A model generated the notes under the pieces. It ran no database searches. It had not been told where the DNA came from and saw nothing but the letters and a program-made list of their open reading frames with translations. A stretch of 64,000 nt of DNA from contig JAOUMJ010000002.1 in the NCBI GenBank assembly GCA_029881495.1, positions 2,087 through 66,086 on the forward strand. The letters run 5' to 3'. Source of the DNA: Nitrospinota bacterium (GTDB taxonomy: Bacteria; Nitrospinota_A; UBA7883; JACRGQ01). The translations under genes were made by a program, and so were the position numbers. Each line of letters opens with the position of its first letter. Within the stretch, counting starts at the first letter, position 1. Below, piece by piece: positions 5,393 through 32,113 of this stretch.

Positions 5393-5417
5393 GGTTTTTT
5401 ATTCTATTATTGTTTGG

Positions 5418-6296: not shown

Positions 6297-6344
6297 ATTA
6301 GACTGTTATCCTTGTTTTTCGCGAAAGGCGTTTTCTTTCGGCTT

Positions 6345-6683: not shown

Positions 6684-6704
6684 ATTACCTCCAATGGCAA
6701 AATA

Positions 6705-14922: not shown

Positions 14923-15269
14923 CCGTGAATATTATCACGGCCTACGAAAATAAAACAAAAAATCACTCAAAATTTGTGTCATTTATTTTCTACCAACAAA
15001 ATTTGTAGCTAGTCAGGCGACTATTGATCTTCTTCATGACTAACTGCATGATATATAAGGAGATAAGCGGAAATAAATAAACGGCACAATGATTGCTCTA
15101 TAAGTAGTCAAGCGGGTAATGCCGCTAAAGTTCGGATGGCGGGGTTCCGTCCGTTAAAAAGCCCTGAACGCCTCCAACGTTTAGAACGGGTACGGAATTT
15201 CCGAAAAAGTTTATCCCCAATAAACGCCCCCCGCCCCGAACTTTGTTTTCACTTCCAGATTCCCGGTAT

Positions 15270-15506
15270 CTATGTTGTCTTGCGGTATCCGCCTTCGCCG
15301 TCGCGCACAAACTTTGAAAACCCTTTATCCTTGAGATTGGAGTTGGAAAGGTGATTTTTCCCATGTGAGAAGGGGGAGAGGATTCGAATTACCCGATCTT
15401 GGCATACGGGGCAGAAATCAAGAGGTTTTTCAGCTAGAGTAATGAATTCAAATGGATCCCTGCATTTTGTAGTTTTATCGACATGTTTATATTCAAATAT
15501 CGGCAT
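15270..15506 (-). CDS. FmdB-like zinc-ribbon protein
   Basis: MPIFEYKH...CPVCQ arrangement typical of FmdB-family putative regulatory zinc ribbons. Confidence 0.55.
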   Translation of the reverse strand: MPIFEYKHVDKTTKCRDPFEFITLAEKPLDFCPVCQDRVIRILSPFSHGKNHLSNSNLKDKGFSKFVRDGEGGYRKTT

Positions 15507-15640
15507 CTTTTTACCTTTCAGGCTGTATTCTATATGTATTAATTTGGAAAAAATTAAAAAAGATCATTTTTTAGCTAAACTTTTACAAATTTGTGCCGAA
15601 AGGACTATTAGGATAGTTTTTTTTAAAGAGGACAGGTGTT

Positions 15641-15865
15641 ATGCAAGTAGATATTAAGAGGCCGGGAACAGGAAGTATTAAACCTCCATCACAGAGCAGC
15701 GGTATAAATCCTGGAAAGGCGGCGGGGCGATTGAAATCGATGGCTTCCAATGTGCTCAGGAGCTCGAAGCAGGTCGAATCGCACGTTGCGCAGGAGACGC
15801 AGAAGAATGTTCAGGCCGGCAAAAATCCGAAAACTATAAAAGGCGGTATTGATCTAAAGGCTTAG
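15641..15865 (+). CDS. hypothetical small basic protein (74 aa)
   Basis: ORF preceded by AAAGAGGA RBS. No homology recognised. Confidence 0.35.
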   Translation: MQVDIKRPGTGSIKPPSQSSGINPGKAAGRLKSMASNVLRSSKQVESHVAQETQKNVQAGKNPKTIKGGIDLKA

Positions 15866-15954
15866 TCCTTTCCGCCCGTTTCAGGATTTTTGCACGCTAC
15901 GAATCGCGGATGCCGTGCGCGCATCCCCAAGACAGGAAGAGAGGCTTGCTCCCT

Positions 15955-16126
15955 ACGCCCCCCCCAAAAAAATATGGGAGGGATCTAACCCCAGAAAATA
16001 AGGCCCGGTATGTAAGGTGTGACCATATTCTTGTGATAGGGGAGTATCCTTATGGCGAAACCGTGAAGCCCCGCGCTGTCGCAAGGTATCGGCCCTTTGA
16101 AATGGTAGCTCCCTTTCTCGATTTCC
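15955..16126. repeat. left copy of a roughly 170-bp direct repeat; a displaced duplicate of the glgP 3' end (46 codons plus stop-proximal sequence)
   Basis: Near-identical (2-3 mismatches) to 19374-19542. On the minus strand it encodes EIEKGSYHFKGPIPCDSAGLHGFAIRILPYHKNMVTPYIPGLIFWG*. Begins with a C8-A7 homopolymer pair. Confidence 0.9.
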
Positions 16127-16470
16127 AGGAAGCTCTTGTAAAGCGCCAACAGGCATGGGGGACGTATCGGCTCCATGATCCCTCTGGCGCTTGAAGTGCG
16201 CGCTCACGACATGTTTTTAGGCTGTATTCCGAAAAAATCCAATTGCATATTTTAATTACAATTTTATGAAAATAAACTCATATTTACAGGTAATTAAATA
16301 AATACAAAGCTCTCCATCGTAATAAAAATATGCCGTTTTATTTATTTTGTTTGCTACCAGAAATAGGTATATTAATATAATATCGTGCCTATATTAATAC
16401 AGATGTAATGCGTAGTTAATTTATGTGTGACATTTGAGCTAATCAGTTCATTTTAATTTGGGGGTATTTT

Positions 16471-18951
16471 ATGGCGCAAAGAAAGGTTTCCGTTCTCTTC
16501 TCTTCACTCAGGACATTACTGCTCTTTTTTTCTCTTATCCCGTTATTAACGGCTTGTCCAGCCCCTACGGGAGAACCTGTACTGACATCATTGGTCATAT
16601 CGGGTGATTCAGCGATAAATGAAAACAGCAGTGCCACATATACGGCCATGGCGGAGTATGATGACGGCAGTTCCAAGGTTGTCAACGCGTACTGGTCGGA
16701 GGACAGCTCAGACGCTTCCGTGGATACCAGCGGAAAGGTAACAACAACAGAGGTGTCGGCTGACACACTTTTCACCTTGAGGGCCGAATTTGATACAAAG
16801 ACCGCTACCAAGGCGATTACCATTAAGGATGTATTAAATACGACTGACACCACCACTGACACCACGACTGACACCACGACTGACACCACGACTGACACGA
16901 CCACTGACACGACCACTGACACGACCACTGACACGACCACTGACACAGGTACTGGCACCGCCATTCCTTCTGTGACATCGGTTACAATAAACGATGGGGT
17001 CGCTTCGACAATTTCGGCTACCGTTAATGTGTCTATAGATGCTACGGATGACGTTGGTGTTACAGGCTACTTCCTCTCTGAATCAGCCACAACACCGGCG
17101 CTTGCCGATTTCATAGACGCTACATCCGCGGCAACTTTTAACGTCTCGACAACATTTACGCTTAGCGCGACATTTGGCACAAAGACGATTTATGTATGGG
17201 TAAGAGATGCGGCGGGGAATATTTCAGCTTCTGCTTCCGATTCCATAGGCCTTAATAAATTCTATTCAGATACATCTATTTCCATCCCTGATTATGACAA
17301 CGTCAACTGGAATCCCGGTGTTGCGACATCGACGATCAATATATCTGGAGCAACGTTTGTTACCAATGTAAGGGTAGGCGTCGATATCTCCCATGTCGAT
17401 GATCAGGACTTGGAAATAAATTTGATAAGCCCTTCGGGTCGTAGGGTAACTCTTTTCAATTACAGCCCATGGGAAAACCAGGCCACAAACCCTGGCAATA
17501 ATTTGACCTCGGCTGTTTTCGATGACTTTGCGAGCCAGGAAATCTTAAAGTCAACGGGGCCTTTCAGCGGATCGTATCGACCCGTCGGCTACCTCGCGTC
17601 ATTAGTTGGTGAAAGCATTAATGGGAACTGGCAGCTGGAGGTAAATGATTGGGGAGTAGATAACATCGGAACCATAAACGGCTGGAGCCTGGAGTTTGAA
17701 ACCGCCGCCACCGCGACTGTTCCGGTTCCTCCTGCTCCATTTATTTCTTGGAGGTTTTTAGAAAGTCAAGGTACGCCTTCCATGTACTGGCATCAGCTAA
17801 ATAACAGCCTGGAAACCGTAACGACAAATATATATATCGGCACTGCTCCTGGCGTTACTCCGGTTCCGACAAGTACGCCCGATATTTTAAAAATGGCGCC
17901 TGATTATAGCGGGGCCAATTGGTTCAGTCATACCTTCGCCGCCAGCGCTACGACATATTACTATGTGCTGACTTTTGAAACTGCCGCTGGTGAGAGCCTC
18001 CCGTCCGAAGAGTTCCAAATTACAACACCGGATTCAGGGTTAGGAACGCAAACACTGTTGACAAGCGATTACGCGGGTACCGGCGCGATCACCGGCTGGC
18101 TCGGTACAGGAACCTGGGGTACTACCAGCTCGACGGTAAACGCAGGTTCGACATCGTTTACCGATAGCCCGGCAGGGAACTACGCGCCTAATACTAATTA
18201 CTTCCTGACATCCACAACAGGCGTTGATATTTCAGGTTATACAAATCCGGTACTCTCCTTTGCCCACAAATATGATTTTGGTATTTGGACAAACGACACT
18301 GGATTTGTAGAAATTTCTACTGATGCCGGCGTAACGTGGAACCAGTTGGCAGCCTATAACTCCTATGACGGATCGGTGACAGCATGGACGCCAGAAGCGC
18401 TTTCGTTGGCATCTTATGCAGGTGCCCCTTCACTCAGGGTACGATTCAGGTTGTTTATTATGGATAACGGCGTTGCAAACACCTTTGATGGCTGGTATCT
18501 GGACGATATCGCGATCATAGACGTTCCTCCTTCTGGCGTCTATAACTCAACTGGGGCAGTGGCAATTTCAGATAATTCAACTGTGACTTCCACAATAACT
18601 GTTGCGGATACCGGGACAGTTGCCAGTGTCAAGGTATATGTGAATATAACTCATACATGGTCATCTGATATGACAATTGTTCTTATAAGTCCTAGTGGAA
18701 CCAGTCTAATACTGGCTGATGGGCTGGGGTCGATTGATTCTTTTGTCGATACGATCTTTGATGATTCCGCAACCTTGGACATCAATACCGCAGGTGATCC
18801 GTATACAGGCTCGCATAGAGCGGCTTCAATGCTTTCAAACTTAAACGGAGAAACCATAAATGGAACATGGACTCTTGAAGTGACAGATAGCGTGAACGGT
18901 GATGTAGGTACAATAAACAGCTGGTATGTCGAGATTGTTCCTGCTCCTTGA
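16471..18951 (+). CDS. surface lipoprotein with Big-like domains, a (TTDT)n linker and two proprotein-convertase P-domains but no peptidase domain
   Basis: Lipoprotein signal ...LLTAC. Two P-domain blocks: VGVDISHVDDQDLEINLISPSGRRVTLF...INGNWQLEVNDWGVDNIGTINGWSLEFE and VKVYVNITHTWSSDMTIVLISPSGTSLIL...INGTWTLEVTDSVNGDVGTINSWYVEI. No S8 Asp-His-Ser motifs. Confidence 0.8.
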   Translation: MAQRKVSVLFSSLRTLLLFFSLIPLLTACPAPTGEPVLTSLVISGDSAINENSSATYTAMAEYDDGSSKVVNAYWSEDSSDASVDTSGKVTTTEVSADTLFTLRAEFDTKTATKAITIKDVLNTTDTTTDTTTDTTTDTTTDTTTDTTTDTTTDTTTDTGTGTAIPSVTSVTINDGVASTISATVNVSIDATDDVGVTGYFLSESATTPALADFIDATSAATFNVSTTFTLSATFGTKTIYVWVRDAAGNISASASDSIGLNKFYSDTSISIPDYDNVNWNPGVATSTINISGATFVTNVRVGVDISHVDDQDLEINLISPSGRRVTLFNYSPWENQATNPGNNLTSAVFDDFASQEILKSTGPFSGSYRPVGYLASLVGESINGNWQLEVNDWGVDNIGTINGWSLEFETAATATVPVPPAPFISWRFLESQGTPSMYWHQLNNSLETVTTNIYIGTAPGVTPVPTSTPDILKMAPDYSGANWFSHTFAASATTYYYVLTFETAAGESLPSEEFQITTPDSGLGTQTLLTSDYAGTGAITGWLGTGTWGTTSSTVNAGSTSFTDSPAGNYAPNTNYFLTSTTGVDISGYTNPVLSFAHKYDFGIWTNDTGFVEISTDAGVTWNQLAAYNSYDGSVTAWTPEALSLASYAGAPSLRVRFRLFIMDNGVANTFDGWYLDDIAIIDVPPSGVYNSTGAVAISDNSTVTSTITVADTGTVASVKVYVNITHTWSSDMTIVLISPSGTSLILADGLGSIDSFVDTIFDDSATLDINTAGDPYTGSHRAASMLSNLNGETINGTWTLEVTDSVNGDVGTINSWYVEIVPAP
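16841..16948 (+). repeat. about 9 tandem copies of a 12-bp unit (actgacaccacg / actgacacgacc) encoding (TTDT)n inside the lipoprotein gene
   Basis: Read directly in the sequence. The unit is in frame, so copy-number change alters linker length, not reading frame. Confidence 0.9.
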
Positions 18952-19373: not shown

Positions 19374-19542
19374 TCGCCCCCCCCCAAATATGGGAGGGAT
19401 CTAACCCCAGAAAATAAGGCCCGGTATGTAAGGTGTGACCATATTCTTGTGATAGGGGAGTATTCTTATGGCGAAACCGTGAAGCCCCGCGCTGTCGCAA
19501 GGTATCGACCCTTTGAAATGGTAGCTCCCTTTCTCGATTTCC
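19374..19542. repeat. right copy of the roughly 170-bp direct repeat; the functional 3' end of glgP
   Basis: Begins with a C9 tract followed by aaatatgggagggatctaacc... It is contiguous with the intact glgP reading frame. Confidence 0.9.
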
Positions 19543-21959
19543 CCTTCACACGTCATCGCGATCGATTTACCTTCGTTTATCTCGCCGTTGCTGTCCAGAT
19601 TGCCGTAATAGCACTCTACGACGATATCGTCCGGGGTCAGGTCCCCCAGCCTTACCTTTACCTCGACCGGCTTCAGGTTGCCGACAGCTGGGTGGAGGAA
19701 ACTGTCCTCCTTTATCTCCAATATCTTTATGTGAGGCCAGCCGTTTTTCAGCTTGTGCTTCCAGGCCGCGAGCGATTTTATTATTTCGGGCTGCTGTTCG
19801 ACCTGTTCATGCCAGCGTCTGCCGAGATCGAGGTAGAACTTCTCGGTGTACTCCCTTACCATCCTGTTGGTATTGAAGATCGGGATGAGGTTCATCATGG
19901 CGCTCTTCATCTTCCCTATCCACCCTCTCGGGAGCCCGTCCGTGCCCCTTGTGTAGAAGAGGGGGATGATGTCCTTCTCAAGAATTTCATAGAGGTTTCT
20001 CCCCTCGATAGAATCCTGGATCGCTTCATCCTTGTACTCCTCGCCGGCGCCTATTGCCCATCCGTTTTCATGGGAGTAGATTTCGTCCCACCATCCGTCG
20101 AGAACGGAGAGATTGAGGACGCCGTTTGCGGCGGCTTTCATTCCGCTGGTACCGCTCGCCTCAAGGGGGCGCCGCGGGTTGTTCAGCCAGATGTCGCACC
20201 CCTGAACCATATAGCGGGCGATGTCGATATCGTAATTTTCAAGAAAGATGATCTTTCGAAGGAACCCCATCTCCCTGGCTGTATGGACTATCTTCTTGAT
20301 GAAGTTCTTTCCCTCGGTATCGGCGGGGTGGGCCTTTCCGGCGAATATTATCTGTACGGGCCTCTCCTTGTTCTCAAGGATCTTCTCGAGCCTTTTGAGA
20401 TCGCTTAGGATCAGCGTTCCCCTCTTGTATGTGGCAAATCTCCGGCCAAATCCGATGGTAAGCGCCTCGGGATTAAGCGATTCCTCCGCCTGTTGCATTT
20501 CGGAATCGGACGCCCCCCGCTTCTTCAGCTGTTCGAGGAGCCTTTTGCGCGAAAAGGCCACGAGACGCTCCCTGCGCCTTTCGTGCATGCGCCAGAGTTC
20601 CGCGTCCGGAATGGCGGCGATTTTTTTCCATATGGTGTCGTCTCCCGGTTTGGTTATCCATTTGGTGCCGAGATAGCGTTCGTAGAGGTTTTTCAGCTCC
20701 TCGGATACCCATGTGCGTATATGTATTCCGTTGGTGATCGAGCGGATAGGAACATGGCTCACCGGAAGGCCGGGCCAAATGTTGTGCCACATCTGCCTGG
20801 ATATCTTGCCATGGAGTTTCGAAACTCCGTTATTGCCGGCAGAGAGCCTGAGGGCAAGCACCGTCATGCCGAACGGTTCGTTATGGTCTTCGGGATTGAT
20901 CCTCCCCAGGGTGAGGAGCCTGTCGACATCAAGCCGGGTCTCCCTTAAAAGCGGCTCCATGTATCTTTTGAGCATGCTCTTTTCAAACAGCTCGTTGCCT
21001 GCGGGAACCGGCGTATGGGTTGTGAAAACGGTTGAAACCCTGCACGCCTCCTTTGCTTCAAAGAAGTCGAATCCGTGCTTTTTCATCAGGTGAGCGATAC
21101 GCTCGACCCCCAAAAAGGCGGAATGCCCCTCGTTCATGTGGAATACCGTCGGATTCAGCCCCAGAGCCTCGAATATCTTTATCCCGCCAATGCCGAGGAG
21201 TATCTCCTGCTGTATCCGCATCTCCCTGTCTCCGCCGTAGAGCTGGGATGTTATCTGCCTGTCCTCTGGGGAGTTCTCCTGAATGTTCGTATCGAGGAGA
21301 TAAAGGGGAATTCTGCCGACTTCCGCCTTCCAGATATGCGCATATACGTTTCTTCCAGGGAACGGTATTTCGACCTTTACTGGTATTCTATCCTTCTCCT
21401 CCCTTTTAAGCGGAAGAAGGTAGAGGCTGTTTTCGGGATATTTTTCCTGCTGCCACCCGTCGGGATTGAGGTACTGCGTAAAGTAGCCGTGCGAGTATGC
21501 CAAACCGATCCCGACAAGCGGAAGGCCGAGATCGCTTGCCGATTTCAGATGGTCCCCGGCCAGCACTCCAAGGCCGCCGGAGTATATCGGCAGGCATTCA
21601 TCTATTCCGAATTCAAGCGAGAAATAGGCGATCTTTGTATCCTTGCTCCATTTCTGCAAGTGCTTCTCCTTGAACCATGTATCCGCTTTGAGATATTCCT
21701 CCAGGCTTATCAAAACCGTCTCAAGATGGGTAAGGAATCCGTCGTCCTCGGCAAGTTCGCGCAATCTCTCCTGGGTTGCGGTGCCGAGTACCTTGACCGG
21801 ATTGTGGTTGCAGGAATCCCAAAGGTCGGAATCAATCCTGCGAAGAAGGTTTACCGCGTCATGGTTCCAGGTCCACCAGAGGTTATATGCGATATCTTCA
21901 AGCGGTTTTAGCTTTTCCGGCAGTGAAGGTTCAACTATAAATTTTCTGTACTCAGGCAT
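19401..21959 (-). CDS. glgP: alpha-glucan (glycogen/maltodextrin) phosphorylase, GT35 family
   Basis: 852 aa. PLP-site region EASGTSGMKAAANGVLNLSVLDGWWDE. Overall architecture of the alpha-glucan phosphorylase family. Confidence 0.88.
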   Translation of the reverse strand: MPEYRKFIVEPSLPEKLKPLEDIAYNLWWTWNHDAVNLLRRIDSDLWDSCNHNPVKVLGTATQERLRELAEDDGFLTHLETVLISLEEYLKADTWFKEKHLQKWSKDTKIAYFSLEFGIDECLPIYSGGLGVLAGDHLKSASDLGLPLVGIGLAYSHGYFTQYLNPDGWQQEKYPENSLYLLPLKREEKDRIPVKVEIPFPGRNVYAHIWKAEVGRIPLYLLDTNIQENSPEDRQITSQLYGGDREMRIQQEILLGIGGIKIFEALGLNPTVFHMNEGHSAFLGVERIAHLMKKHGFDFFEAKEACRVSTVFTTHTPVPAGNELFEKSMLKRYMEPLLRETRLDVDRLLTLGRINPEDHNEPFGMTVLALRLSAGNNGVSKLHGKISRQMWHNIWPGLPVSHVPIRSITNGIHIRTWVSEELKNLYERYLGTKWITKPGDDTIWKKIAAIPDAELWRMHERRRERLVAFSRKRLLEQLKKRGASDSEMQQAEESLNPEALTIGFGRRFATYKRGTLILSDLKRLEKILENKERPVQIIFAGKAHPADTEGKNFIKKIVHTAREMGFLRKIIFLENYDIDIARYMVQGCDIWLNNPRRPLEASGTSGMKAAANGVLNLSVLDGWWDEIYSHENGWAIGAGEEYKDEAIQDSIEGRNLYEILEKDIIPLFYTRGTDGLPRGWIGKMKSAMMNLIPIFNTNRMVREYTEKFYLDLGRRWHEQVEQQPEIIKSLAAWKHKLKNGWPHIKILEIKEDSFLHPAVGNLKPVEVKVRLGDLTPDDIVVECYYGNLDSNGEINEGKSIAMTCEGEIEKGSYHFKGSIPCDSAGLHGFAIRILPYHKNMVTPYIPGLIFWG

Positions 21960-22184: not shown

Positions 22185-22841
22185 TCAAAGCGAGATAATC
22201 GCGTTTGAATATTCCCTGTAATGATGCAGCACTTTGTCCGCATAGTAATACTTTATCCTTTTTCTCCTCTTCAGGTCTTTGCTTATGGAAGCGGGCCCAC
22301 GGTTGTATGCCTCAAGGGCCAATCGGACGTTCCCGAACTGCTGAAGAAGTTTTGAAAGATAATATGTCCCAAGCGCGATATTTTTCCTGCTGTCGTACAG
22401 GTTGCCTTCGTGATAATAGGCGACATTGGCTTTGTCGGCCACATAGCTGGCGGTAGGGGGGAGAAGCTGCATCAGACCTACGGCCCCCTTGTGCGAAACA
22501 GCAAATCGCTGAAAATTGCTCTCGGTCCTGATTACTGCAAGTATCAAAACAGGATCAATATTGTGCTCCTCGCTCTTGGCGAGAATGAGCCTGGCCAGTT
22601 TTTCAGGATTATGGTAGAGATTGCCGTCGGATTCCTTTAGGAGCGCCTCAACCTTGGCGCAAAATTCCGCCCTTAGCATCCAGTCGTTGTATTCCACCTT
22701 GAGACTTTTCAATTCTGCAATAAGGCCAGGCTTGGCATCTGCACTCTCCTGCTGTTTAAAATCCTCCACTGTGCGCAAATATCCAAACCCGAGAAGAAAT
22801 GGTATCGAAATAATTATGTAAAAAAAGCCTTTTATCCTCAT
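22185..22841 (-). CDS. membrane-anchored lytic transglycosylase (SLT domain)
   Basis: N-terminal TM. SLT motif ILAVIRTESNFQ...AVGLMQLLPPTA...YN.G. Confidence 0.8.
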   Translation of the reverse strand: MRIKGFFYIIISIPFLLGFGYLRTVEDFKQQESADAKPGLIAELKSLKVEYNDWMLRAEFCAKVEALLKESDGNLYHNPEKLARLILAKSEEHNIDPVLILAVIRTESNFQRFAVSHKGAVGLMQLLPPTASYVADKANVAYYHEGNLYDSRKNIALGTYYLSKLLQQFGNVRLALEAYNRGPASISKDLKRRKRIKYYYADKVLHHYREYSNAIISL

Positions 22842-23100
22842 CCTTTTCTCCTGTTTTTCCGTAGAGTACAGTATAGTTTGCGCTTGCCATTTATGGCTGG
22901 CAGAGTGGAGAGAGCCAAAATTTTAGTTCTGCATAGTCTCCACTTACGATACCGTGCTCAATTTAAAAGTTTGTTAAGCCGTATTTTGTTAGTAATTATA
23001 TATATAATGTATTTAAAAGAGAAGTATTTTATTAAAAAAATAAATTCAGATAACACCAATAAATACAGCGTGATAGACTTGGGCTGGGTTGTGAAATATG

Positions 23101-23109
23101 TGTTATAAT
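23101..23109 (+). promoter_or_regulatory. candidate extended -10 element (TGtTATAAT) in the AT-rich region upstream of the giant gene
   Basis: tgttataat at 23101-23109, about 115 nt upstream of the ATG at 23226. Surrounding region is over 70% AT. Confidence 0.3.
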
Positions 23110-23225
23110 GTACCAGTAGGAGGAGAAAGACCAAATATGTATGTCTTTCTATTGCCAATTATGTGTATTTGCATAACCATATTTGGAGTGAAATCTGGAT
23201 ATGTAGGTTTCCAAGGTAAAAAAAG

Positions 23226-26200
23226 ATGATAGTTTCCTGCCCAAACTGCGAAAGCAGGTACGATATCGAGCCTGGCGGAATTCCGCAAGGGGGGACATAC
23301 GCGCATTGCACCAATTGCGAAAACATTTTCTTCCTGAAAAAACGTAAAAAGGGTGAAAAACCTCGCGCCGCCGCCGTCGGAGCCGGCTCCGCATTGTCGG
23401 AAAGGGATACCGGCGAGATGAGGATTGCTGAAGATAACGGATTTAATCCAGATACCGACTCATTCCCGACCGGAGAAGAGGAGACGGCGCAGGAGCCGGA
23501 ATCGCTCTTTGATGAGATGTTGAATGAAGGTTTCGACGAAGGCCAGCCTCCGGGCGAACCTATGGAGGAGACATTCGCAAGTCAACAGAACGGTGTTCAG
23601 ACATTTTCAATCGAGGATGAGAACGGAGGTGTTGAAGAGAGCATCGCCGACGCGGTAGAAGAGGATATTGACGAGTTTTCTGACGGCACATCCGAGGTGT
23701 TGGAGCTTGAAGCGCCAAATCTCCTGATGGATGAATCTCTAGCAGAGATTGAAGAGGCCGATTTCGAGAGGGATTCTGAGGACCATATTCTTAATTTCGA
23801 AGATGAGGAAAGCGATGAGCCCCAGACGGTAGAAAATGAGATCAGCGACATTCTTCAGTCGGCAGGTCTGTTCGGCAATGGTGAGGCCGAGCCTATCAAG
23901 GCGGAGAGAGGGTTTTCCAGCATGGAAGAGGCGGGCGGGAGCGAATCCGAAGCGGATATCTTTGATGAAGTTAAATCCGAGATGGATATGTTTGAAGAGG
24001 TGAAATCTGAAATCGAAAAAACCGCGCCCCCCGAGACAATGACTGCCGACCTGGCGGAAGAGAGCGAGGTAGGGAGGATATTTGATGACATAAAGAGCGG
24101 AGCCGTTTCAGACGACAGCGGATCTCCTTCAAGCGAAACCGAATTCCAGGACGAAATAGACAAGCTGTTTGCGATGGCGGATGGGGAGGGAGACGCGTCA
24201 ACGCAGGCAGTCGGAAGAGGGGTGATCGATTCAATACTGGATGATTCCAGTTTTGATACAGAGGAGCATGAAGGGGACGCAATCAACGGCAATGGCGGGT
24301 ACAACAATCCGTTTGAAGAGTCGCTCCTTGGAACAGATTCCGATCCGGTGCATGACGAGGTTGATGATATCTTTTCAAGCGGGGGATTGTTCGATGATGA
24401 ATCTACAGGAGCGAATGCAAAGGAGCGGGGGCTCAAGGAGGGGACAGCGTCAGTACCAATGTCCGTGCAGGATGAGATAGATGAGCTTTTTGAACGTAAC
24501 CAGGAAAAGGGACAGACCTACATCATGCCTGAAAGCGCGGTTGAGGATGTGCTTGCACAGGCGGATCAAAGTTCCAAATCCGGCTTTGACGATGTCGACA
24601 TCGACGCTATATTTGCCGAATCGAGCCAGCAGGAGTTTTCACATGGCACAGAGCCGACTGATACGGAGATAGTAAATCTGGAATATACGCCCTTGCCTGG
24701 AGAGTCCTCCCCAATGGATGAATTTGCTGGCGAGGATATTGAATCCCTCTTTTCGGAAGAAAGCGAAGTTCCAGGCAAAAAAGACTCATTGGCGGAAGTT
24801 GATTCAGAAAAAACGGAATATGGCGGAGGTGGCGTGGAGCTCTCCCTGCAGGATGAAATAAACTCTATCTTGTCAGATTCATCTTCGGATTCGGATTCGC
24901 CGCTTGAATCGCCCGAGGCGCTTAGCGAACTGGATACGATAATATTTGAAAGTACAAAGAGAGGTGATTCTGCAAAAGGGCAGTCTGATGTTGATTCACT
25001 TTTCGATGTGTCAAAAGAGAATGACAAGCCCGAGCCAGCGCCAGCAGAGTTACCCACATCTTCCGGTTCCGGCGCTCAATTCAACATAGACGCCATATTT
25101 GCCGAGGCGGCCGGCGGCGGGTCTACAGGCTCGGCAGAGCCGGAGGCTTCAAAAGGTGTTTCATCAGGCGAAGAGATAGACATAGACGCGATATTTGCCG
25201 AGGTTAAAGGTGGCGGGTCTACAGGCTCGGCAGAGCCGGAGGCTTCAAAAGGTGTTTCATCAGGCGAAGAGATAGACATAGACGCAATATTTGCCGAGGT
25301 TAAAGGTGGCGGGTCTACAGTCTCGGCAGAGCCTGAGGCATCAAAAGACGTTTCGTCAGACGAAGAGATAGACATAGACGCAATATTTGCCGAGGTTAAA
25401 GGTGGCGGGTCTACAGTCTCGGCAGAGCCTGAGGCATCAAAAGATGTTTCATCAGATGAAGAGATAGATATAGACGCAATATTTGCCGAGGTTAAAGGTG
25501 GCGGGTCGACAGGCTCGGCAGAGCCTGAGGCATCAAAAGACGTTTCGTCAGATGAAGAGATAGACATAGACGCGATATTTGCCGAGGCTCAAGGCGGCGG
25601 GTCTACAGTCTCGGCAGAGCCGGAGGCTTCAAAAGATGTTTCGTCAGACGAAGAGATAGACATAGACGCGATATTTGCCGAGGCTCAAGGCGGCGGGTCG
25701 ACAGGCTCGGCAGAGCCGGAGGCTTCAAAAGATGTTTCGTCAGACGAAGAGATAGACATAGACGCGATATTTGCCGAGGCGACAGAAGGTATAGACGCAG
25801 AGCTGACAGATTCAGATACTTCCTCCAGCGTAGATCAAGGGGGACAGGCTGATATTGATGCCTTCTTTGCCGAGACAACCGGTGAAAAGAATGTAATTCC
25901 TGTTGTTGCGGATAAGGAAATTGACGTTAACCTGGGGGGACAGAACGATATAGACGCTATGTTTGCCGAGGCGGCAGGGGGGGAGACCGCTACGGTATCT
26001 GAGGCCCCTTCCGGCGACGACCTCGGCGGTCAGGATGATATTGATTCGATGTTTGCCGAAGCGGCAGGCGGGGAAACTGCTACGGTATCTGAGGCCCCTT
26101 CCGGCGACGACCTCGGCGGTCAGGATGATATTGATTCGATGTTTGCCGAGATGACAGACGGGGAACCCCCCGCGGTATCTGAGGCCCCTTCCGGCGACGA

Positions 26201-27995
26201 CCTCGGCGGTCAGGATGATATTGATTCGATGTTTGCCGAGATGACAGACGGGGAAACCCCCGCGGTATCTGAGGCCCCTTCCGGCGACGACCTCGGCGGT
26301 CAGGATGATATTGATTCGATGTTTGCCGAGATGACAGACGGGGAACCCCCCGCGGTATCCGAGACCACATCAAGCGACGACCTTGGTGGAGATAACGATA
26401 TAGACGCTATGTTTGCCGAGGCGGCAGGGGGGGAGACCGCTACGGTATCCGAGACCCCATCAAGCGACGACCTCGGCGGAGATAACAATTTAGATTCATT
26501 ATTTGGCGAATCAGCCGATAACACGGAGAAGGGGGAATTGGCCTCTGGAGGTGACTCTATGAATGAAGGTATTGATGTTTCATCTGACGATGATTTGGAC
26601 GCTCTTTTCGATGGAGATGCCTCGGAACCTACAGATATTTCCACTCCTGCAGAGCCGAGTTCCGCAGAGGGGACATCAAAGCAGGAAGAGGATGGGGCTG
26701 TAATAAGTCAGGATGATCTGGACGCCTTGTTTTCAGAAGAGGGTGGAGGGGACCCTGGTTCCATGGCAACTGCAGATAGTGCCGCTGATGGAGGGGAAAC
26801 TGACAGCTCCGAAGTAGATTTCGGGATATCCGGCGATAAGGATCTTGATTCGCTGTTCGATGCTGAAGCCGAGACGGCAATAATAGGAGACGAGCCTTCC
26901 TTTGACGCCACCCCTGCTGAAAGCGCGGGCGGAAGCAGCGAAGGGGGGATTGACACTTCAATGCTTGAGAGCGTTTCGGAATCGAATGAGCCTGATCATG
27001 AACTTGAGGAGACAAGCGTAGTCGAAACCCAGAGCGTGGATGGTGAGCAGAAAGTAGGAAAACTCGCCAAAGCAGTGCTGGGGGAGGAGGACGAGTTGGA
27101 TTTTGACGAGCCGGCAGAAAAGAAAAAATTTGGCCTCATAGGGAAATTGGCAAAAGTTGCCATGGCTGCCATGCTCCTTGTAGCAGTCGGGCTTGGAACA
27201 GTAACCTACACAAAAAACCAGAATCCGCTGGCGGTAATTGAGCAGGTAAAATCAAAAGGCTTCGGAGGCCTGGGGATAGGTATGTCTGAGATCCTTTCGT
27301 TCAAAGGTTCCGCCGATGTCGAAGAGATGGAGAAAAAGAGAGAAGAGGGGAAGGAAAGCGCTTCTTCAAAAGTGGATGAATCGAAATCAGACGATCAGGT
27401 CGCTGAAGGTACCGGAGAAGCTGCAGGTGATGGAGGCGGCGACACAAGTGGGGATGGCACAAGTGTTGTGGAACAGAAAGAGTTGACCGGCGTGGTACCT
27501 GTACCTGAAAGAGGTGGAACGGTGGTAGCCGACAAGACTCCGTCGCCGGAATCGTCTCTGCCGCCTTTGGAAGAGGACGCGATAGAGACAGCCGCATTGG
27601 AGCCCGCTCCGGTAAAAGCGGCCGTAACAAAAGCGATACCACCCCCGGGCGAGCGCGGAGAGGAATTTCAGTCGGAAGTCTATGAGAGAAACACGGAGCT
27701 GAAGATAGGGGTAATCGTTCCGGTAGACTTCAACGCCGAAGCCGTGAAGGTTATGACTGCTGATGTTCTGATCACGTTCCAGAACACGTCTGAATACGAT
27801 ATGGCCGACACGAAAAGATATCTGTACGAGATGGCGGTAGAAGAAGAGATCGAGAAATTTTTCCTTGATAAGTTTTATGAAGATACTCTGTATGTTCAGG
27901 ACAAAATCATTGCCCAGCTTAATACTAAATTTAAAAAACGGCCCGAGATGGGGAAAATTGCCGAAATAGATATCGAAAACTTCAAGCTGAAATGA
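23226..27995 (+). CDS. giant (1589 aa) hyper-acidic protein with an N-terminal MJ0042-type zinc ribbon, a roughly 1250-aa repeat-rich acidic linker, one TM helix and a DUF3426-like C-terminal domain
   Basis: N-terminus MIVSCPNCESRYDIEPGGIPQGGTYAHCTNCENIFFLKK (CxxC...CxxC). TM KKKFGLIGKLAKVAMAAMLLVAVGLGTVTY near aa 1300. About 230-aa beta-rich C-terminal domain. Single uninterrupted ORF. Confidence 0.8.
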   Translation: MIVSCPNCESRYDIEPGGIPQGGTYAHCTNCENIFFLKKRKKGEKPRAAAVGAGSALSERDTGEMRIAEDNGFNPDTDSFPTGEEETAQEPESLFDEMLNEGFDEGQPPGEPMEETFASQQNGVQTFSIEDENGGVEESIADAVEEDIDEFSDGTSEVLELEAPNLLMDESLAEIEEADFERDSEDHILNFEDEESDEPQTVENEISDILQSAGLFGNGEAEPIKAERGFSSMEEAGGSESEADIFDEVKSEMDMFEEVKSEIEKTAPPETMTADLAEESEVGRIFDDIKSGAVSDDSGSPSSETEFQDEIDKLFAMADGEGDASTQAVGRGVIDSILDDSSFDTEEHEGDAINGNGGYNNPFEESLLGTDSDPVHDEVDDIFSSGGLFDDESTGANAKERGLKEGTASVPMSVQDEIDELFERNQEKGQTYIMPESAVEDVLAQADQSSKSGFDDVDIDAIFAESSQQEFSHGTEPTDTEIVNLEYTPLPGESSPMDEFAGEDIESLFSEESEVPGKKDSLAEVDSEKTEYGGGGVELSLQDEINSILSDSSSDSDSPLESPEALSELDTIIFESTKRGDSAKGQSDVDSLFDVSKENDKPEPAPAELPTSSGSGAQFNIDAIFAEAAGGGSTGSAEPEASKGVSSGEEIDIDAIFAEVKGGGSTGSAEPEASKGVSSGEEIDIDAIFAEVKGGGSTVSAEPEASKDVSSDEEIDIDAIFAEVKGGGSTVSAEPEASKDVSSDEEIDIDAIFAEVKGGGSTGSAEPEASKDVSSDEEIDIDAIFAEAQGGGSTVSAEPEASKDVSSDEEIDIDAIFAEAQGGGSTGSAEPEASKDVSSDEEIDIDAIFAEATEGIDAELTDSDTSSSVDQGGQADIDAFFAETTGEKNVIPVVADKEIDVNLGGQNDIDAMFAEAAGGETATVSEAPSGDDLGGQDDIDSMFAEAAGGETATVSEAPSGDDLGGQDDIDSMFAEMTDGEPPAVSEAPSGDDLGGQDDIDSMFAEMTDGETPAVSEAPSGDDLGGQDDIDSMFAEMTDGEPPAVSETTSSDDLGGDNDIDAMFAEAAGGETATVSETPSSDDLGGDNNLDSLFGESADNTEKGELASGGDSMNEGIDVSSDDDLDALFDGDASEPTDISTPAEPSSAEGTSKQEEDGAVISQDDLDALFSEEGGGDPGSMATADSAADGGETDSSEVDFGISGDKDLDSLFDAEAETAIIGDEPSFDATPAESAGGSSEGGIDTSMLESVSESNEPDHELEETSVVETQSVDGEQKVGKLAKAVLGEEDELDFDEPAEKKKFGLIGKLAKVAMAAMLLVAVGLGTVTYTKNQNPLAVIEQVKSKGFGGLGIGMSEILSFKGSADVEEMEKKREEGKESASSKVDESKSDDQVAEGTGEAAGDGGGDTSGDGTSVVEQKELTGVVPVPERGGTVVADKTPSPESSLPPLEEDAIETAALEPAPVKAAVTKAIPPPGERGEEFQSEVYERNTELKIGVIVPVDFNAEAVKVMTADVLITFQNTSEYDMADTKRYLYEMAVEEEIEKFFLDKFYEDTLYVQDKIIAQLNTKFKKRPEMGKIAEIDIENFKLK
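25084..25780 (+). repeat. coding tandem array A: 96-bp unit x about 7.25, encoding DIDAIFAEVKGGGSTGSAEPEASKGVSSGEEI
   Basis: Unit boundaries at 25084, 25180, 25276 and so on up to 25757. Copies differ by a few synonymous or conservative substitutions. Confidence 0.9.
25935..26500 (+). repeat. coding tandem array B: 90-bp unit x about 6.3, encoding GGQDDIDSMFAE(A/M)(A/T)(G/D)GE(T/P)(A/P)xVSEAPSGDDL
   Basis: Read directly in the sequence. Distinct from array A but carrying the same DIDxMFAE core. Confidence 0.9.
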
Positions 27996-28097: not shown

Positions 28098-28760
28098 ATG
28101 GCAAAAATATTGATCGTTGATGACGACCCGAATATAGCCCTTCTCCTTGAGATGACGCTTCAGAAAAAAGCCGAGTATTCCATCGAAAAGGTGACAGACG
28201 GGCAGAAGGCGCTTGAGCGTATAAATGAAACGAAGCCGGATCTTATCCTTCTTGACATCATGATGCCGGGAATTGACGGGTATGAAGTATGCCGAAGGCT
28301 GAAGATGTCAAACGATACCAAGTATATCTCGGTCATTATCCTTTCGGCGAAGAGGGATATCCAGGACAAGATCAAGGGTATGGATATCGGGGCGGACGAC
28401 TATATTGTCAAGCCTTTCAATCCCGACGAGCTTCTTACACGGGTTCAGGTGCAGTTGCGGATTCGAAAGCTGGAATCGGAAATAGTGGATAAAAAGCAGC
28501 TTGAAACGGTCCTTGCGATGTCCGTTACCCTTCAGCATGAGATCAACAATCCCCTGGCAGGGATACTGGGGAACGCTGATCTTTTAAAGGAGTGGAAGAA
28601 TCTCAGCGACGAAGAGGTGGACGAATCGATCCAGGCGATCGTGAAACAGTCTGCAAGAATAAGGGACATCGTACATAAGATGTCCACGGCGACAAAGGTG
28701 GTTGAATCCACCTATCTCGGCGATACCAAGATGATAGATATTACAAGGCTTAATCCGTAG
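28098..28760 (+). CDS. response regulator receiver fused to a HisKA dimerisation/phosphoacceptor domain, with no HATPase domain
   Basis: REC motifs ILIVDDD..ILLDIMMPGIDG..ILSAK..DDYIVKPF. H-box SVTLQHEINNPLAGILGNADLL. The protein ends about 60 aa later with no ATP-binding N/G boxes. Confidence 0.75.
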   Translation: MAKILIVDDDPNIALLLEMTLQKKAEYSIEKVTDGQKALERINETKPDLILLDIMMPGIDGYEVCRRLKMSNDTKYISVIILSAKRDIQDKIKGMDIGADDYIVKPFNPDELLTRVQVQLRIRKLESEIVDKKQLETVLAMSVTLQHEINNPLAGILGNADLLKEWKNLSDEEVDESIQAIVKQSARIRDIVHKMSTATKVVESTYLGDTKMIDITRLNP

Positions 28761-31279: not shown

Positions 31280-32113
31280 TTACAGTTTTTGGTAAACGGG
31301 TATCCCGTTAGCGTTGACAAGTTTAAAGTTTTTCGAAACATTGTGCAACGTTTCCGAGTGTCCCGTAAAAAAATAGCTGTTATCCCCCATTATTTTCGAT
31401 ATTCCATCAACGACCTTTCTTTTGGTTTCAATGCCGAAGTAGATAAGGATGTTGGCGCAGAATACGACGTCGAAGTTATCATATCCCTGAGGGTATTTGG
31501 GATTGAGCAGGTTGATCCTGTCGAACCGAACTTTGGGGAGTTTCTCCTTTTTCAGCTTGTACCAATCGGTGTGATTTTCGAAGAAATTCTCCCTGTATTC
31601 CGGCGGCATGTTTCGAAGGGAGTGTTTTGAGTAGTTTCCGGCTTCGGCCATTGCCAGAACTTCCGTATTTATATCGCTTGCGTACAGTTCAAGGGATATC
31701 CCTTTTGGGATTGCGTTTTTACGCGCAAGTATCATCGCGATGGTATATATCTCTTCACCGGAGGAGCTTGCGGCGCTCCATATCTTTACCTTGTTATTGC
31801 CGGATGTTTTTTTTACACGCAATATTTCTGGCAAAAGTATGTTTACAAGGGCGTCTATCTGCGCGACGTTTCTGAAGAACGACGTTTCATTCGTGGTTAC
31901 GGCGTTTATGAAGTGTTCGATCTCGGTTTTACTACTCTTTGGGCCGTCAATAAGGGGAAGGTATTCTGTGAAACTCGAAAGTCTCAGGTCGTAAAGCCTC
32001 TCCTGAAGCCGGGCTTCAAACAGGTATTTTTTAGCGGAATCATAAAGGATGCCGCATTCCCGGTTGATGACTTTTGACATCACCGCAAGCTCTTCGTCCG
32101 TGAGTTTGATCAT
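31280..32113 (-). CDS. cheR: second CheR-type chemotaxis methyltransferase paralogue
   Basis: TTNETSFFRN, KIWSAASSSGEEIYT and MGDNSYFFTGHSE motifs of CheR. Confidence 0.85.
   Translation of the reverse strand: MIKLTDEELAVMSKVINRECGILYDSAKKYLFEARLQERLYDLRLSSFTEYLPLIDGPKSSKTEIEHFINAVTTNETSFFRNVAQIDALVNILLPEILRVKKTSGNNKVKIWSAASSSGEEIYTIAMILARKNAIPKGISLELYASDINTEVLAMAEAGNYSKHSLRNMPPEYRENFFENHTDWYKLKKEKLPKVRFDRINLLNPKYPQGYDNFDVVFCANILIYFGIETKRKVVDGISKIMGDNSYFFTGHSETLHNVSKNFKLVNANGIPVYQKL

What the first reader, a model, noticed from the sequence alone, without database searches (positions are those of the whole stretch)
23226..27995. Giant hyper-acidic zinc-ribbon/DUF3426-type membrane protein with a 1250-aa disordered linker
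One uninterrupted 4.77-kb ORF encodes a protein whose two ends look like an ordinary small protein family. The N-terminus is an MJ0042-type CxxC...CxxC zinc ribbon. The C-terminus has a single TM helix followed by a roughly 230-aa beta-rich domain of the DUF3426 type. Between them, instead of the usual short linker, sits a roughly 1250-residue Asp/Glu/Ser/Gly-rich low-complexity region, which is highly unusual for this family. By topology the N-terminal ribbon and the acidic region should be cytoplasmic and the C-terminal domain periplasmic. That is the layout of polar hub and scaffold proteins, but no member of this family is functionally characterised. The gene has its own AT-rich upstream region (22842-23225).
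Basis: partly seen in the sequence, partly recalled or inferred. Interest (0 to 1): 0.8.

Follow-up and report, generated by a model that had tools for sequence, protein, structure and literature searches.

The report
FliL-like membrane protein displaying EIDAL-motif array
This giant Nitrospinota gene is real, but its "linker" is an array of about 27 copies of the short peptide that flagellar switch proteins use to bind the chemotaxis signal CheY-P and the flagellar regulator FlhG, and it is tethered to the membrane by a FliL-like (not DUF3426) domain, so it is probably a multivalent docking or decoy scaffold at the flagellar motor.

Summary
The 1589-aa ORF (23226-27995, +) is real and is NCBI MDH5541536.1 from a Nitrospinota MAG. 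The N-terminal MJ0042/Zn_ribbon_4 domain, the single TM helix and the very acidic composition are confirmed.

Two parts of the finding are wrong:
- **"Disordered linker".** It carries 27 copies, 20-68 aa apart, of [DE][IL]D[AS][ILM]F. About 0.03-0.7 copies are expected by chance.

In 20 relatives the motif consensus is h-S-Q-D-D-I-D-A-L-L/F. That is the "EIDALL" peptide of FliM/FliY, which binds CheY-P and FlhG. A second clade of the family, including Nitrospina gracilis, repeats the FliN N-terminal motif instead.

The family has 94 cluster representatives, nearly all Nitrospinota. It always sits divergently next to an SLT lytic transglycosylase.

Best reading, inferred and untested: a FliL paralogue that presents a multivalent cloud of switch-protein peptides beside the motor. 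It is capped by a ZitP/GltJ-type Zn ribbon that may act as a lock or anchor.

Repeat copy number is uncertain, because other assemblies break or differ inside the arrays.

The parts
22185..22841 (-). SLT-domain lytic transglycosylase (218 aa), the divergently transcribed conserved partner gene
   Evidence: It matches Pfam SLT at 6e-28. Its best NCBIfam hit is BB0259 'flagellar assembly lytic transglycosylase' at 1.5e-27, which covers the catalytic domain only and is below the curated cut-off. The same divergent SLT gene lies next to family members in L001, L004, L016, L017 and N. gracilis L020.
22842..23225 (.). AT-rich divergent intergenic region (GC 0.34) with an extended -10-like TGTTATAAT at 23101-23109
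   Evidence: The sequence is. TATAAT-like boxes sit at comparable positions upstream of the homologues in L004, L016 and L017 (my reading). The consensus promoter scan found no two-hexamer site here.
23226..27995 (+). Whole ORF, 1589 aa plus stop, equal to NCBI MDH5541536.1
23226..23333 (+). N-terminal CxxC...CxxC zinc ribbon (aa 1-36), of the ZitP/GltJ type
   Evidence: It matches Pfam PF13717 above the gathering score. The family profile hits the ZitP Zn ribbon 2nb9_A (E 1.4e-8) and the GltJ/AgmX Zn ribbon 7zok_A (E 5e-5).
23361..24131 (+). Acidic region aa 46-302 (D+E 31%) with only degenerate acidic-plus-Phe motifs (e.g. ESLFDE, ADIFDE, MDMFEE)
24132..26882 (+). Array of 27 EIDAL-like motifs, [DE][IL]D[AS][ILM]F, often preceded by Q (aa 303-1219). 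Spacing is 20-68 aa, most commonly 30-32.
25084..25779 (+). Tandem DNA array 1: 96 bp x 7.2 copies, 94% identical. Each 32-aa unit carries EEIDIDAIFAE.
   Evidence: The motif codons vary only synonymously, while the spacer codons vary non-synonymously.
25959..26479 (+). Tandem DNA array 2: 90 bp x 5.8 copies, 89% identical. Each 30-aa unit carries GQDDIDSMFAE.
   Evidence: L002 has three fewer units.
27135..27194 (+). Single transmembrane helix (aa 1304-1323), N-terminus inside
   Evidence: This is the only 20-aa window with mean Kyte-Doolittle hydropathy of about 2.0. EKKK precedes it.
27195..27695 (+). Periplasmic low-complexity linker (aa 1324-1490)
   Evidence: pLDDT is below 50 over the modelled part of this linker, model residues 1-40 = aa 1448-1487; composition.
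27696..27992 (+). C-terminal FliL-like (SPFH-type) alpha/beta domain (aa 1491-1589)

Best explanation
The gene encodes a Nitrospinota-specific paralogue of the flagellar stator-associated protein FliL. Its cytoplasmic N-terminal tail has been expanded into a multivalent display of the peptide that flagellar switch proteins use as a docking site.

Shown:
- The architecture is Zn ribbon, about 1260 acidic residues with 27 EIDAL-like motifs, one TM helix (N-terminus inside), a periplasmic linker of about 165 aa, and a FliL-fold domain.
- Only the two ends and the motif are conserved across the family. Motif-bearing units have been amplified independently in different lineages.

Inferred mechanism:
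1. The periplasmic FliL-like domain places the protein at the flagellar basal body, where canonical FliL forms rings around stator units. It may work together with the co-conserved SLT peptidoglycan lytic transglycosylase.
2. The long polyanionic tail then fills the space beside the C-ring with EIDAL(L)-type peptides.
3. These peptides bind the proteins that normally read the motif on FliM/FliY, namely CheY-P and/or the MinD-like ATPase FlhG.
4. The array therefore either concentrates these proteins at the motor or acts as a decoy that buffers them.
5. By analogy with GltJ and ZitP, the N-terminal Zn ribbon is a protein-binding module. It may lock onto one of the protein's own motifs until a signalling protein competes it off, or it may anchor the tail to another organiser.
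For: FliL-like domain:
- The family profile hits C. jejuni FliL 9hmf_O at E 6.8e-4.
- 30 of 67 members hit Pfam FliL, and P0070 scores above the gathering cut-off.
- NCBI names the N. gracilis homologue FliL.

Motif:
- There are 27 copies against 0.03-0.75 expected.
- The consensus over 161 regex-selected instances (a few false matches fall in the C-terminal domain) in 20 other proteins is h-S-Q-D-D-I-D-A-L-L/F.
- The exact strings EIDALL and [DE]IDAL[LF] occur in relatives.
- Within the arrays the motif codons change only synonymously.
- Independent expansions with different unit lengths are seen: 32 and 30 aa here, 27 aa in P0006, and about 36 aa in P0060.

Literature on the motif:
- EIDAL(L) at the N-terminus of FliM/FliY is the binding site for CheY-P, in the groove between CheY helices alpha4 and alpha5. 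It is also necessary and sufficient for FlhG binding (PMC9126983; bioRxiv 10.1101/2022.04.21.489128; PMC6946799).

Second clade:
- Clade B carries repeated SEDDLWAQAFADQ instead. This matches Pfam FliN_N (PF16973) above the gathering cut-off, for example 56 bits in P0060.
- It is an independent link to a C-ring protein N-terminus.
- Nitrospinota FliN proteins themselves lack that motif.

Other context:
- The conserved SLT neighbour has the Borrelia flagellar lytic transglycosylase as its best NCBIfam hit.
- The window encodes a bona fide FliN, and the Nitrospinae core genome encodes flagella and chemotaxis (PMC5029188).
- Zn ribbon precedents: the GltJ Zn ribbon binds an 18-aa motif in its own linker and MglA-GTP competes with it (PMC11135422). 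The ZitP Zn ribbon binds PopZ (PMC5182065).
- FliL rings around stators are described in PMC8794807, PMC8931381 and PMC6426602.
Against: - No binding was tested.
- The AF2 run on a CheY-like REC fused to one motif gave only a short helix over QDDLDAL with pLDDT about 63 and no contact read-out. That REC also lacks the Lys119/Lys122 equivalents, by my alignment to E. coli CheY recalled from memory.
- Motif profiles searched against PDB sequences did not retrieve FliM. The best, non-significant hits were the MglB C-terminal helix, a PKS docking domain and paxillin LD motifs.
- In the window protein the last motif position is Phe rather than Leu, and the motifs are internal rather than N-terminal.
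- The gene is never seen next to flagellar genes. Its neighbourhoods are housekeeping ones.
- No sigma-28- or sigma-54-type promoter was looked for by any tool; the TATAAT-like boxes I read by eye suggest a sigma-70 type, but the consensus scan found no site here.
Confidence: 0.4

Rival explanations
1. GltJ/ZitP-like polarity switch or hub. The acidic motifs are read mainly by the protein's own Zn ribbon, in cis or in trans. That gives a one-reader, many-sticker network that could cluster at a pole. They could also be read by a small Ras-like GTPase module (MglA/MglB-like) or a polar organiser, rather than by CheY or FlhG.
For: - The Zn ribbon is homologous to those of ZitP and GltJ.
- In GltJ the Zn ribbon binds a short motif in its own disordered linker, and MglA-GTP competes for the same motif (PMC11135422).
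- The best PDB match to the window motif profile is the C-terminal helix of MglB, SDDDIDNLFSEGS.
- The acidic repeat region resembles HubP-type hubs (my own knowledge).
Against: - The MglB hit is not significant (E 1.2).
- No GYF domain, MglA/MglB-like gene or PopZ-like gene was seen in the window or in related loci.
- This reading does not explain why a second clade carries the FliN N-terminal motif.
- It does not explain why the periplasmic domain is FliL-like.
Confidence: 0.2
2. Non-flagellar envelope scaffold. The SPFH/FliL-like periplasmic domain works with the adjacent SLT lytic transglycosylase in peptidoglycan remodelling or envelope organisation. The cytoplasmic polyanion is mainly an entropic spacer or cation-binding brush, and its motifs bind an unknown housekeeping partner.
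For: - The only conserved neighbour is SLT, and the wider context is housekeeping (obg, rpmA, rplU, def, glgP, ddl).
- The pair is present in cultured N. gracilis, which has never been seen to swim.
- The sequence-level FliL hits are mostly below threshold.
Against: - Two different C-ring N-terminal motifs occur in the two clades. That is hard to explain without a flagellar link.
- Foldseek ranks ten FliL chains ahead of any SPFH protein.
- The motif is under selection while the spacers are not. A pure spacer role does not fit that.
Confidence: 0.2
3. Assembly or annotation artefact. The giant size comes from mis-assembled repeats or from fusion of separate genes.
For: - Two other short-read assemblies begin inside the arrays.
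- One of them has three fewer 90-bp units.
Against: - The repeat units are in frame and differ from each other by point substitutions.
- The same end-to-end architecture occurs in independent MAGs and in the 3.07-Mb N. gracilis contig, at 561-1312 aa.
- Even without the two arrays the ORF would still be longer than 1100 aa.
Confidence: 0.03

Closest known systems
FliL (Pfam PF03748), the flagellar stator-associated single-pass membrane protein
   Same: - The topology is N-terminus inside, one TM helix, then a periplasmic C-terminal domain.
- Relatives give weak to moderate FliL sequence hits.
   Different: - Canonical FliL is about 150-200 aa with a short cytoplasmic tail and is encoded in flagellar operons.
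- Here the tail is about 1300 aa and carries a Zn ribbon and 27 motifs.
- The periplasmic linker is about 165 aa.
- The window protein does not reach the Pfam FliL threshold.
- The gene sits next to SLT in housekeeping contexts.
EIDAL(L) peptide at the N-terminus of FliM/FliY, the docking site for CheY-P and FlhG
   Same: The sequence pattern matches. The family consensus is h-S-Q-D-D-I-D-A-L-L/F, and the literature motif is EIDALL. Both are predicted or known to form a short acidic amphipathic helix.
   Different: - The family motif is internal and repeated up to 27 times, rather than present once at an N-terminus.
- The window protein mostly has Phe at the last position and Asp in place of Glu.
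- No binding has been demonstrated.
FliN N-terminal motif (Pfam FliN_N, PF16973)
   Same: The second clade of the same family, including N. gracilis, repeats SEDDLWAQAFADQ and matches PF16973 above its gathering score.
   Different: - The window protein (clade A) has no copy of this motif.
- I found no described function for this motif in the papers I searched.
ZitP (Caulobacter; Zn ribbon-TM-DUF3426) and GltJ/AgmX (Myxococcus; Zn ribbon-linker-GYF-TM-periplasmic domain)
   Same: - The N-terminal Zn ribbon is homologous.
- The overall logic is the same: a cytoplasmic Zn ribbon, a disordered linker containing a binding motif, one TM helix and a periplasmic domain.
- Both known proteins connect to motility machinery.
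   Different: - There is no DUF3426 and no GYF domain.
- The linker is 10-15 times longer and multivalent.
- The periplasmic domain is FliL-like.
HubP/FimV-type polar hubs (my own knowledge, not tested here)
   Same: They are single-pass membrane proteins with a very acidic, repeat-rich cytoplasmic region. They recruit flagellar and chemotaxis regulators such as FlhG (mentioned).
   Different: - The topology is opposite.
- No LysM or FimV domain was detected.
- The repeats are unrelated in sequence.

Membership tests
   PF13717 scores 37.9 bits against a cut-off of 30.3. The family profile hits the ZitP Zn ribbon 2nb9_A at E 1.4e-8.
   The last 357 aa give no Pfam or NCBIfam hit even at E <= 1. 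None of 67 family members hits DUF3426. The fold is FliL-like.
FliL (PF03748) | Single N-in TM helix followed by a periplasmic C-terminal domain | tested here: met
   One hydrophobic helix at aa 1304-1323 with KKK on its N-terminal side. Topology is inferred from the positive-inside rule.
FliL (PF03748) | FliL/stomatin-like fold of the periplasmic domain | tested here: met
FliL (PF03748) | Sequence match to the FliL profile above the curated threshold | tested here: not met
   The window protein has no hit. Relatives score 17-21.7 bits against a cut-off of 24.6, and only P0070 scores above it, at 31.5 bits.
FliL (PF03748) | Gene in a flagellar or motor operon | tested here: not met
   The neighbours are SLT, glgP, a REC-HisKA gene, gatCA, and obg/rpmA in N. 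gracilis.
FliL (PF03748) | Ring assembly around MotAB stator units | not testable with these tools
   This needs cryo-ET or biochemistry.
EIDAL(L) CheY-P/FlhG-binding peptide of FliM/FliY | Sequence consensus (L)SQxEIDALL | tested here: inconclusive
   The clade consensus h-S-Q-D-D-I-D-A-L-L/F matches the literature motif. However, profile searches of PDB sequences did not retrieve FliM.
EIDAL(L) CheY-P/FlhG-binding peptide of FliM/FliY | Located at the extreme N-terminus of a C-ring protein with a CheC-like or SpoA domain | tested here: not met
   The motifs are internal, at aa 310-1211, and no FliM or SpoA domain is present.
EIDAL(L) CheY-P/FlhG-binding peptide of FliM/FliY | Binds CheY-P at the alpha4-beta5-alpha5 face and/or binds FlhG | tested here: inconclusive
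   AF2 on a REC+motif chimera gave a helix over the motif with pLDDT about 63, but no contact information. FlhG could not be tested.
FliN_N (PF16973) | Match to the FliN N-terminal profile | tested here: not met
   The window protein has no hit. The feature is met only in clade B relatives, for example P0060 at 56.4 bits against a cut-off of 24.
GltJ-type Zn ribbon-linker-GYF switch | Homologous Zn ribbon | tested here: met
   7zok_A (AgmX/GltJ Zn ribbon) is hit at E 5e-5 by the family profile.
GltJ-type Zn ribbon-linker-GYF switch | GYF domain | tested here: not met
   No GYF hit in Pfam.
GltJ-type Zn ribbon-linker-GYF switch | Zn ribbon binds a linear motif in its own linker, competed by a signalling protein | not testable with these tools
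This needs NMR, ITC or AF-multimer.
HubP/FimV polar hubs | Periplasmic LysM domain and C-terminal FimV domain | tested here: not met
   No such Pfam hits.

The most novel reading that the evidence does not exclude
A motor-tethered sponge or antenna for switch-protein ligands. In this reading Nitrospinota moved the CheY-P/FlhG docking peptide (clade A) or the FliN N-terminal peptide (clade B) off the C-ring. They placed it on a FliL paralogue in tens of copies per molecule, which would mean hundreds to thousands of copies per motor if it forms FliL-like rings. That would add a previously unknown layer of gain control or buffering in chemotaxis, or of flagellar number control. A Zn ribbon lock in the manner of GltJ might gate it.
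Probability: 0.25. Interest if true: 0.85.

Novelty: new variant of a known kind. Interest (0 to 1): 0.68.

Why it matters
- **A new design principle, if the motifs bind CheY-P or FlhG.** This would be the first case of a flagellar signalling peptide displayed as a high-valency array on a membrane scaffold next to the motor. The closest analogy is paxillin LD motifs or other eukaryotic arrays of short linear motifs. It would make questions about local CheY-P buffering, motor gain and FlhG sequestration directly testable.
- **A job for a poorly understood motif.** It assigns a possible role to the FliN N-terminal motif, through the second clade of the family.
- **A handle on Nitrospinota motility.** These are globally important marine nitrite oxidisers that encode flagella but have never been seen to swim.
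- **Annotation.** The "zinc-ribbon domain-containing protein" entries in Nitrospinota should be described as Zn ribbon/EIDAL-array/FliL-like proteins, not as DUF3426 proteins.

Tried and rejected
- **DUF3426 assignment.** Rejected: no Pfam or NCBIfam hit, and the fold differs.
- **Homology search with a motif-rich segment (aa 1080-1230).** 709 candidates, none significant.
- **Motif profiles against PDB sequences.** FliM was not retrieved. Only non-significant hits appeared: MglB C-terminal helix, a PKS docking domain, paxillin LD.
- **AF2 of a chimera (window CheY-like REC 5006-5392 plus one motif).** The REC domain folded well and the motif formed a helix with pLDDT about 63. The tool gives no contacts, so this is inconclusive.
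- **Co-variation idea.** I asked whether Nitrospinota FliN N-termini carry the same motif as the giant protein. They carry neither motif, so there is no co-variation, only a complementary distribution.
- **Upstream small ORF 23137-23229.** It has a strong AGGAGG and its stop overlaps the main ATG. It is not conserved in the nearest relative L004, so it is probably chance.
- **Promoter and terminator consensus scan.** Nothing in the intergenic regions.
- **REC-HisKA gene downstream as a functional partner.** It is conserved only in the nearest relative (L004) and absent from L001 and L020.
- **CheR at 31280-32113 as a linked gene.** It is absent at that position in L004.
- **PopZ recollection.** I recalled that the ZitP Zn ribbon binds the acidic N-terminal helix of PopZ. 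The paper says the interaction does not need the first 26 residues, so I dropped this argument.
- **Beta-clamp-binding motif (QL[SD]LF) and zinc-binding anti-sigma factor.** Considered from my own knowledge and rejected. The Q is at the wrong spacing, and there is no HxxxCxxC motif or ECF sigma neighbour.
- **AFDB Foldseek library.** Not available.
Full report

The ORF 23226..27995 (+) is uninterrupted and encodes 1589 aa. It is identical to NCBI MDH5541536.1, [quoted passage not shown], on a 197-kb MAG contig.

- Residues 1-36 match Pfam Zn_ribbon_4 above the gathering score. As an isolated domain they match TIGR02098 MJ0042_CXXC.
- The start codon is supported by almost identical N-termini in homologues, MIVTCPKCASRYEV....
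- There is exactly one strongly hydrophobic segment, aa 1304-1323, preceded by EKKK. The Zn ribbon and the acidic region are therefore predicted to be cytoplasmic and the C-terminus periplasmic.
- Residues 46-1290 are 15% Glu, 13% Asp, 12.5% Ser and 11% Gly, with net charge -299.
- The upstream intergenic region has GC 0.34, against about 0.5 in the flanks.

So the coordinates, the ribbon, the TM helix and the composition are all correct.

**2.

The last 357 residues hit nothing in Pfam or NCBIfam, DUF3426 included. An AlphaFold2 model of the last 142 residues, built with three homologues, shows the first 40 residues disordered. They are followed by a confident domain of about 100 aa (pLDDT 83-90) with element order strand-strand-helix-helix-helix-strand.

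- Foldseek gives FliL chains from H. pylori, Vibrio and C. jejuni as its ten best hits, ahead of stomatin.
- At sequence level, a profile of this domain finds 94 cluster representatives among 1.8 billion proteins. In most of them the match ends within a few residues of the C-terminus.
- 30 of 67 of those representatives hit Pfam FliL. Most are below the gathering score and P0070 is above it.
- The full family profile hits the C. jejuni FliL chain 9hmf_O at E 6.8e-4.
- NCBI names the Nitrospina gracilis Nb-211 homologue "FliL".

The domain is therefore a divergent FliL/SPFH-type domain, not DUF3426. About 165 low-complexity periplasmic residues separate it from the membrane.

**3.

The acidic region contains 27 copies of [DE][IL]D[AS][ILM]F, often preceded by Q. 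Examples are vQDEIDELF, sQDDLDALF, gQDDIDSMF and eiDIDAIF. The copies lie 20-68 aa apart between aa 310 and 1211. One thousand shuffles of the same residues give 0.75 copies for the loose pattern and 0.03 for the strict one.

Part of the array is recent tandem DNA: 96 bp x 7.2 copies at 94% identity, and 90 bp x 5.8 copies at 89% identity. Within these arrays the motif codons show only synonymous differences, while the spacer codons vary non-synonymously.

The motif is the only element of the cytoplasmic region that is shared with homologues:

- The 478-603-aa Nitrospinota proteins P0001-P0003 have the same ribbon, 2-6 motifs (QDDIDALFGG, ISQADLDSLF), a TM helix, a Pro/Ala-rich linker and the same C-terminal domain.
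- Over 161 instances in 20 non-window proteins the consensus is h-S-Q-D-D-I-D-A-L-L/F. At the last position Leu is 0.57 and Phe 0.37.
- Exact EIDALL and [DE]IDAL[LF] strings occur in relatives.
- Different lineages have amplified different motif-bearing units: 32 and 30 aa here, 27 aa in P0006, and about 36 aa in P0060. This points to repeated selection for high valency.

**4. What the motif resembles.**

- The literature describes a conserved "EIDAL(L)" motif at the N-terminus of FliM and FliY. It is the docking site for CheY-P, in the groove between CheY helices alpha4 and alpha5. It is also necessary and sufficient for binding the MinD-like ATPase FlhG (PMC6946799; bioRxiv 10.1101/2022.04.21.489128; PMC9126983). 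The family consensus is essentially this peptide.
- The family splits into two clades according to the cytoplasmic motif.
  - Clade A, which includes the window protein and P0001-P0029, carries the EIDAL-like motif.
  - Clade B, P0033-P0096 including N. gracilis, repeats SEDDLWAQAFADQ instead.
- The clade B motif matches Pfam FliN_N (the N-terminus of the switch protein FliN) above its gathering score, for example 56 bits in P0060. 15 of 67 members match, with a best E of 4e-19.
- So two different peptides, each normally found at the N-terminus of a C-ring protein, occupy the same position in two branches of one family. I take this as the strongest argument for a flagellar-switch connection.
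- Nitrospinota FliN proteins themselves are short and lack the FliN_N motif.

Caveats on the resemblance:

- Profiles of the motif searched against PDB sequences did not retrieve FliM. The best, non-significant hits were the C-terminal helix of MglB (SDDDIDNLFSEGS), a PKS docking domain and paxillin LD motifs.
- The resemblance to EIDAL therefore rests on comparing the consensus with the published motif. It is not a statistical hit, and no binding was tested.
- An AF2 run on a chimera of the window's CheY-like REC (5006-5392) and one motif folded the REC domain well. It made a short helix over QDDLDAL with pLDDT about 63, but the tool reports no contacts.

**5. The zinc ribbon.**

The family profile hits the NMR structures of the ZitP Zn ribbon (2nb9_A, E 1.4e-8) and the GltJ/AgmX Zn ribbon (7zok_A, E 5e-5). 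Both are protein-binding modules of single-pass membrane proteins linked to motility or polarity.

- The ZitP Zn ribbon binds the polar organiser PopZ.
- The GltJ Zn ribbon binds an 18-aa motif in GltJ's own disordered linker. MglA-GTP competes for that motif, and the released ribbon recruits MglB (PMC11135422).
- This is a direct precedent for a mechanism of [quoted passage not shown]. It also motivates the main rival reading.

**6. Surroundings and distribution.**

- The one conserved neighbour is a divergently transcribed SLT lytic transglycosylase (22185-22841, -). It is present next to family members of both clades, including cultured N. gracilis.
- Its best NCBIfam match is the Borrelia flagellar-assembly lytic transglycosylase BB0259. 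The match covers the catalytic domain only, at E 1.5e-27, below the curated cut-off.
- The REC-HisKA gene just downstream (28098-28760) is conserved only in the nearest relative.
- The wider context is housekeeping. No flagellar operon is adjacent in any locus.
- The genome-collection scan found the family only in Nitrospinota MAGs, two of them labelled Nitrospirae. One partial representative is labelled Scalindua.
- The window does encode a bona fide FliN at 57773-58141 (-), scoring 98 bits on TIGR02480 against a cut-off of 84.
- It also encodes a HEAT-STAS-CheR-CheY-like cluster at 5006-9119.
- The Nitrospinae core genome is reported to encode flagella and chemotaxis, although motility has never been observed in culture (PMC5029188).

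**7. Reliability of the length.**

- An ENA assembly of a 99.3%-identical strain starts inside array 1 and has three fewer 90-bp units in array 2.
- A Logan contig that is 100% identical starts at the end of array 2.
- The copy numbers, and hence the figure of 1589 aa, are uncertain or polymorphic.
- The units are in frame and differ from each other by point substitutions. Homologues of 561-1312 aa in independent genomes have the same architecture. The gene itself is therefore not an artefact.

**8. Mechanism.**

Shown: the domain and motif architecture, its conservation, the two-clade motif swap, the SLT pairing and the FliL-like fold.

Inferred (confidence about 0.4):

- The FliL-like domain places the protein at the flagellar basal body, where FliL forms rings around stator units (PMC8794807, PMC8931381, PMC6426602).
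- The roughly 1300-aa polyanionic tail displays EIDAL-type peptides next to the C-ring.
- These peptides bind CheY-P and/or FlhG and act as a local concentrator or as a decoy buffer.
- The Zn ribbon acts as a lock or anchor in the manner of GltJ or ZitP.

Rivals:

- A GltJ-like self-binding polarity hub read by the protein's own Zn ribbon or by a small GTPase (0.2).
- A non-flagellar envelope scaffold working with SLT (0.2).
- An assembly artefact (0.03).

**9. Novelty.**

Searches of the paper library for "EIDAL" returned four papers, all about FliM, FliY or CheF. Searches for FliL together with zinc-ribbon returned two listed papers, neither about such a fusion protein. I therefore found no description of a FliL-like protein with a Zn ribbon, or of any protein with an array of EIDAL motifs. 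I rate this as a new variant of a known kind: a FliL paralogue with a new cytoplasmic module. It has a credible chance of revealing a new regulatory principle.

Noticed in passing
window 57773-58141 (-), with 58143-58559 (-) and 58565-58804 (-): A bona fide fliN (122 aa, TIGR02480 98 bits against a cut-off of 84) sits alone in a housekeeping string, dksA-like / rpoZ / DUF1844 / fliN, not in a flagellar operon. Its N-terminus has neither the EIDAL motif nor the FliN_N motif, and the same holds for about 120 Nitrospinota-type FliN homologues. In at least three genomes fliN lies on the same contig as the giant gene.
   Followed up: partly
window 5006-9119 (-): A small chemosensory-like cluster: an 804-aa HEAT-repeat protein, a STAS anti-sigma antagonist, CheR and a 128-aa CheY-like REC. 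The REC has the Tyr106/Lys109 equivalents but lacks the Lys119/Lys122 equivalents. A second CheR lies at 31280-32113 (-) and is absent at that position in the nearest relative.
   Followed up: partly
window 28098-28760 (+): A REC + HisKA (DHp) protein with no HATPase domain lies immediately downstream of the giant gene. It is conserved in that position only in the closest relative (L004). It may be a phosphotransfer or phosphatase-type protein.
   Followed up: partly
window 23137-23229 (+): A 30-codon hydrophobic upstream ORF (MYVFLLPIMCICITIFGVKSGYVGFQGKKR) has a strong AGGAGG Shine-Dalgarno sequence, and its TGA stop overlaps the main ATG (ATGA). It is not conserved upstream of the homologue in L004, so it is probably fortuitous.
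   Followed up: yes
window aa 1242-1249 of the ORF (about 26949-26972): A second conserved cytoplasmic element, [IV][DN]TSMLE, lies about 55-115 aa before the TM helix (about 55 aa in the window protein and P0006). It is shared only with P0006 and P0015.
   Followed up: partly
window 25084-26479; L002 and L003: Short-read assemblies of near-identical strains break inside the two tandem arrays, and one differs by exactly three 90-bp units. The repeat copy number is polymorphic or collapsed.
   Followed up: yes
window 16471-18951 (+): An 826-aa protein has two proprotein-convertase P-domains and a weak reelin-subrepeat hit. This is unusual for a bacterium.
   Followed up: no
window about 14923-16470: This 1.5-kb stretch has no ORF of 110 aa or more. 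In another assembly a 63-aa GlgP_C fragment is called here (L018 2944-3135), which suggests a gene remnant beside the intact glucan phosphorylase at 19401-21959.
   Followed up: no
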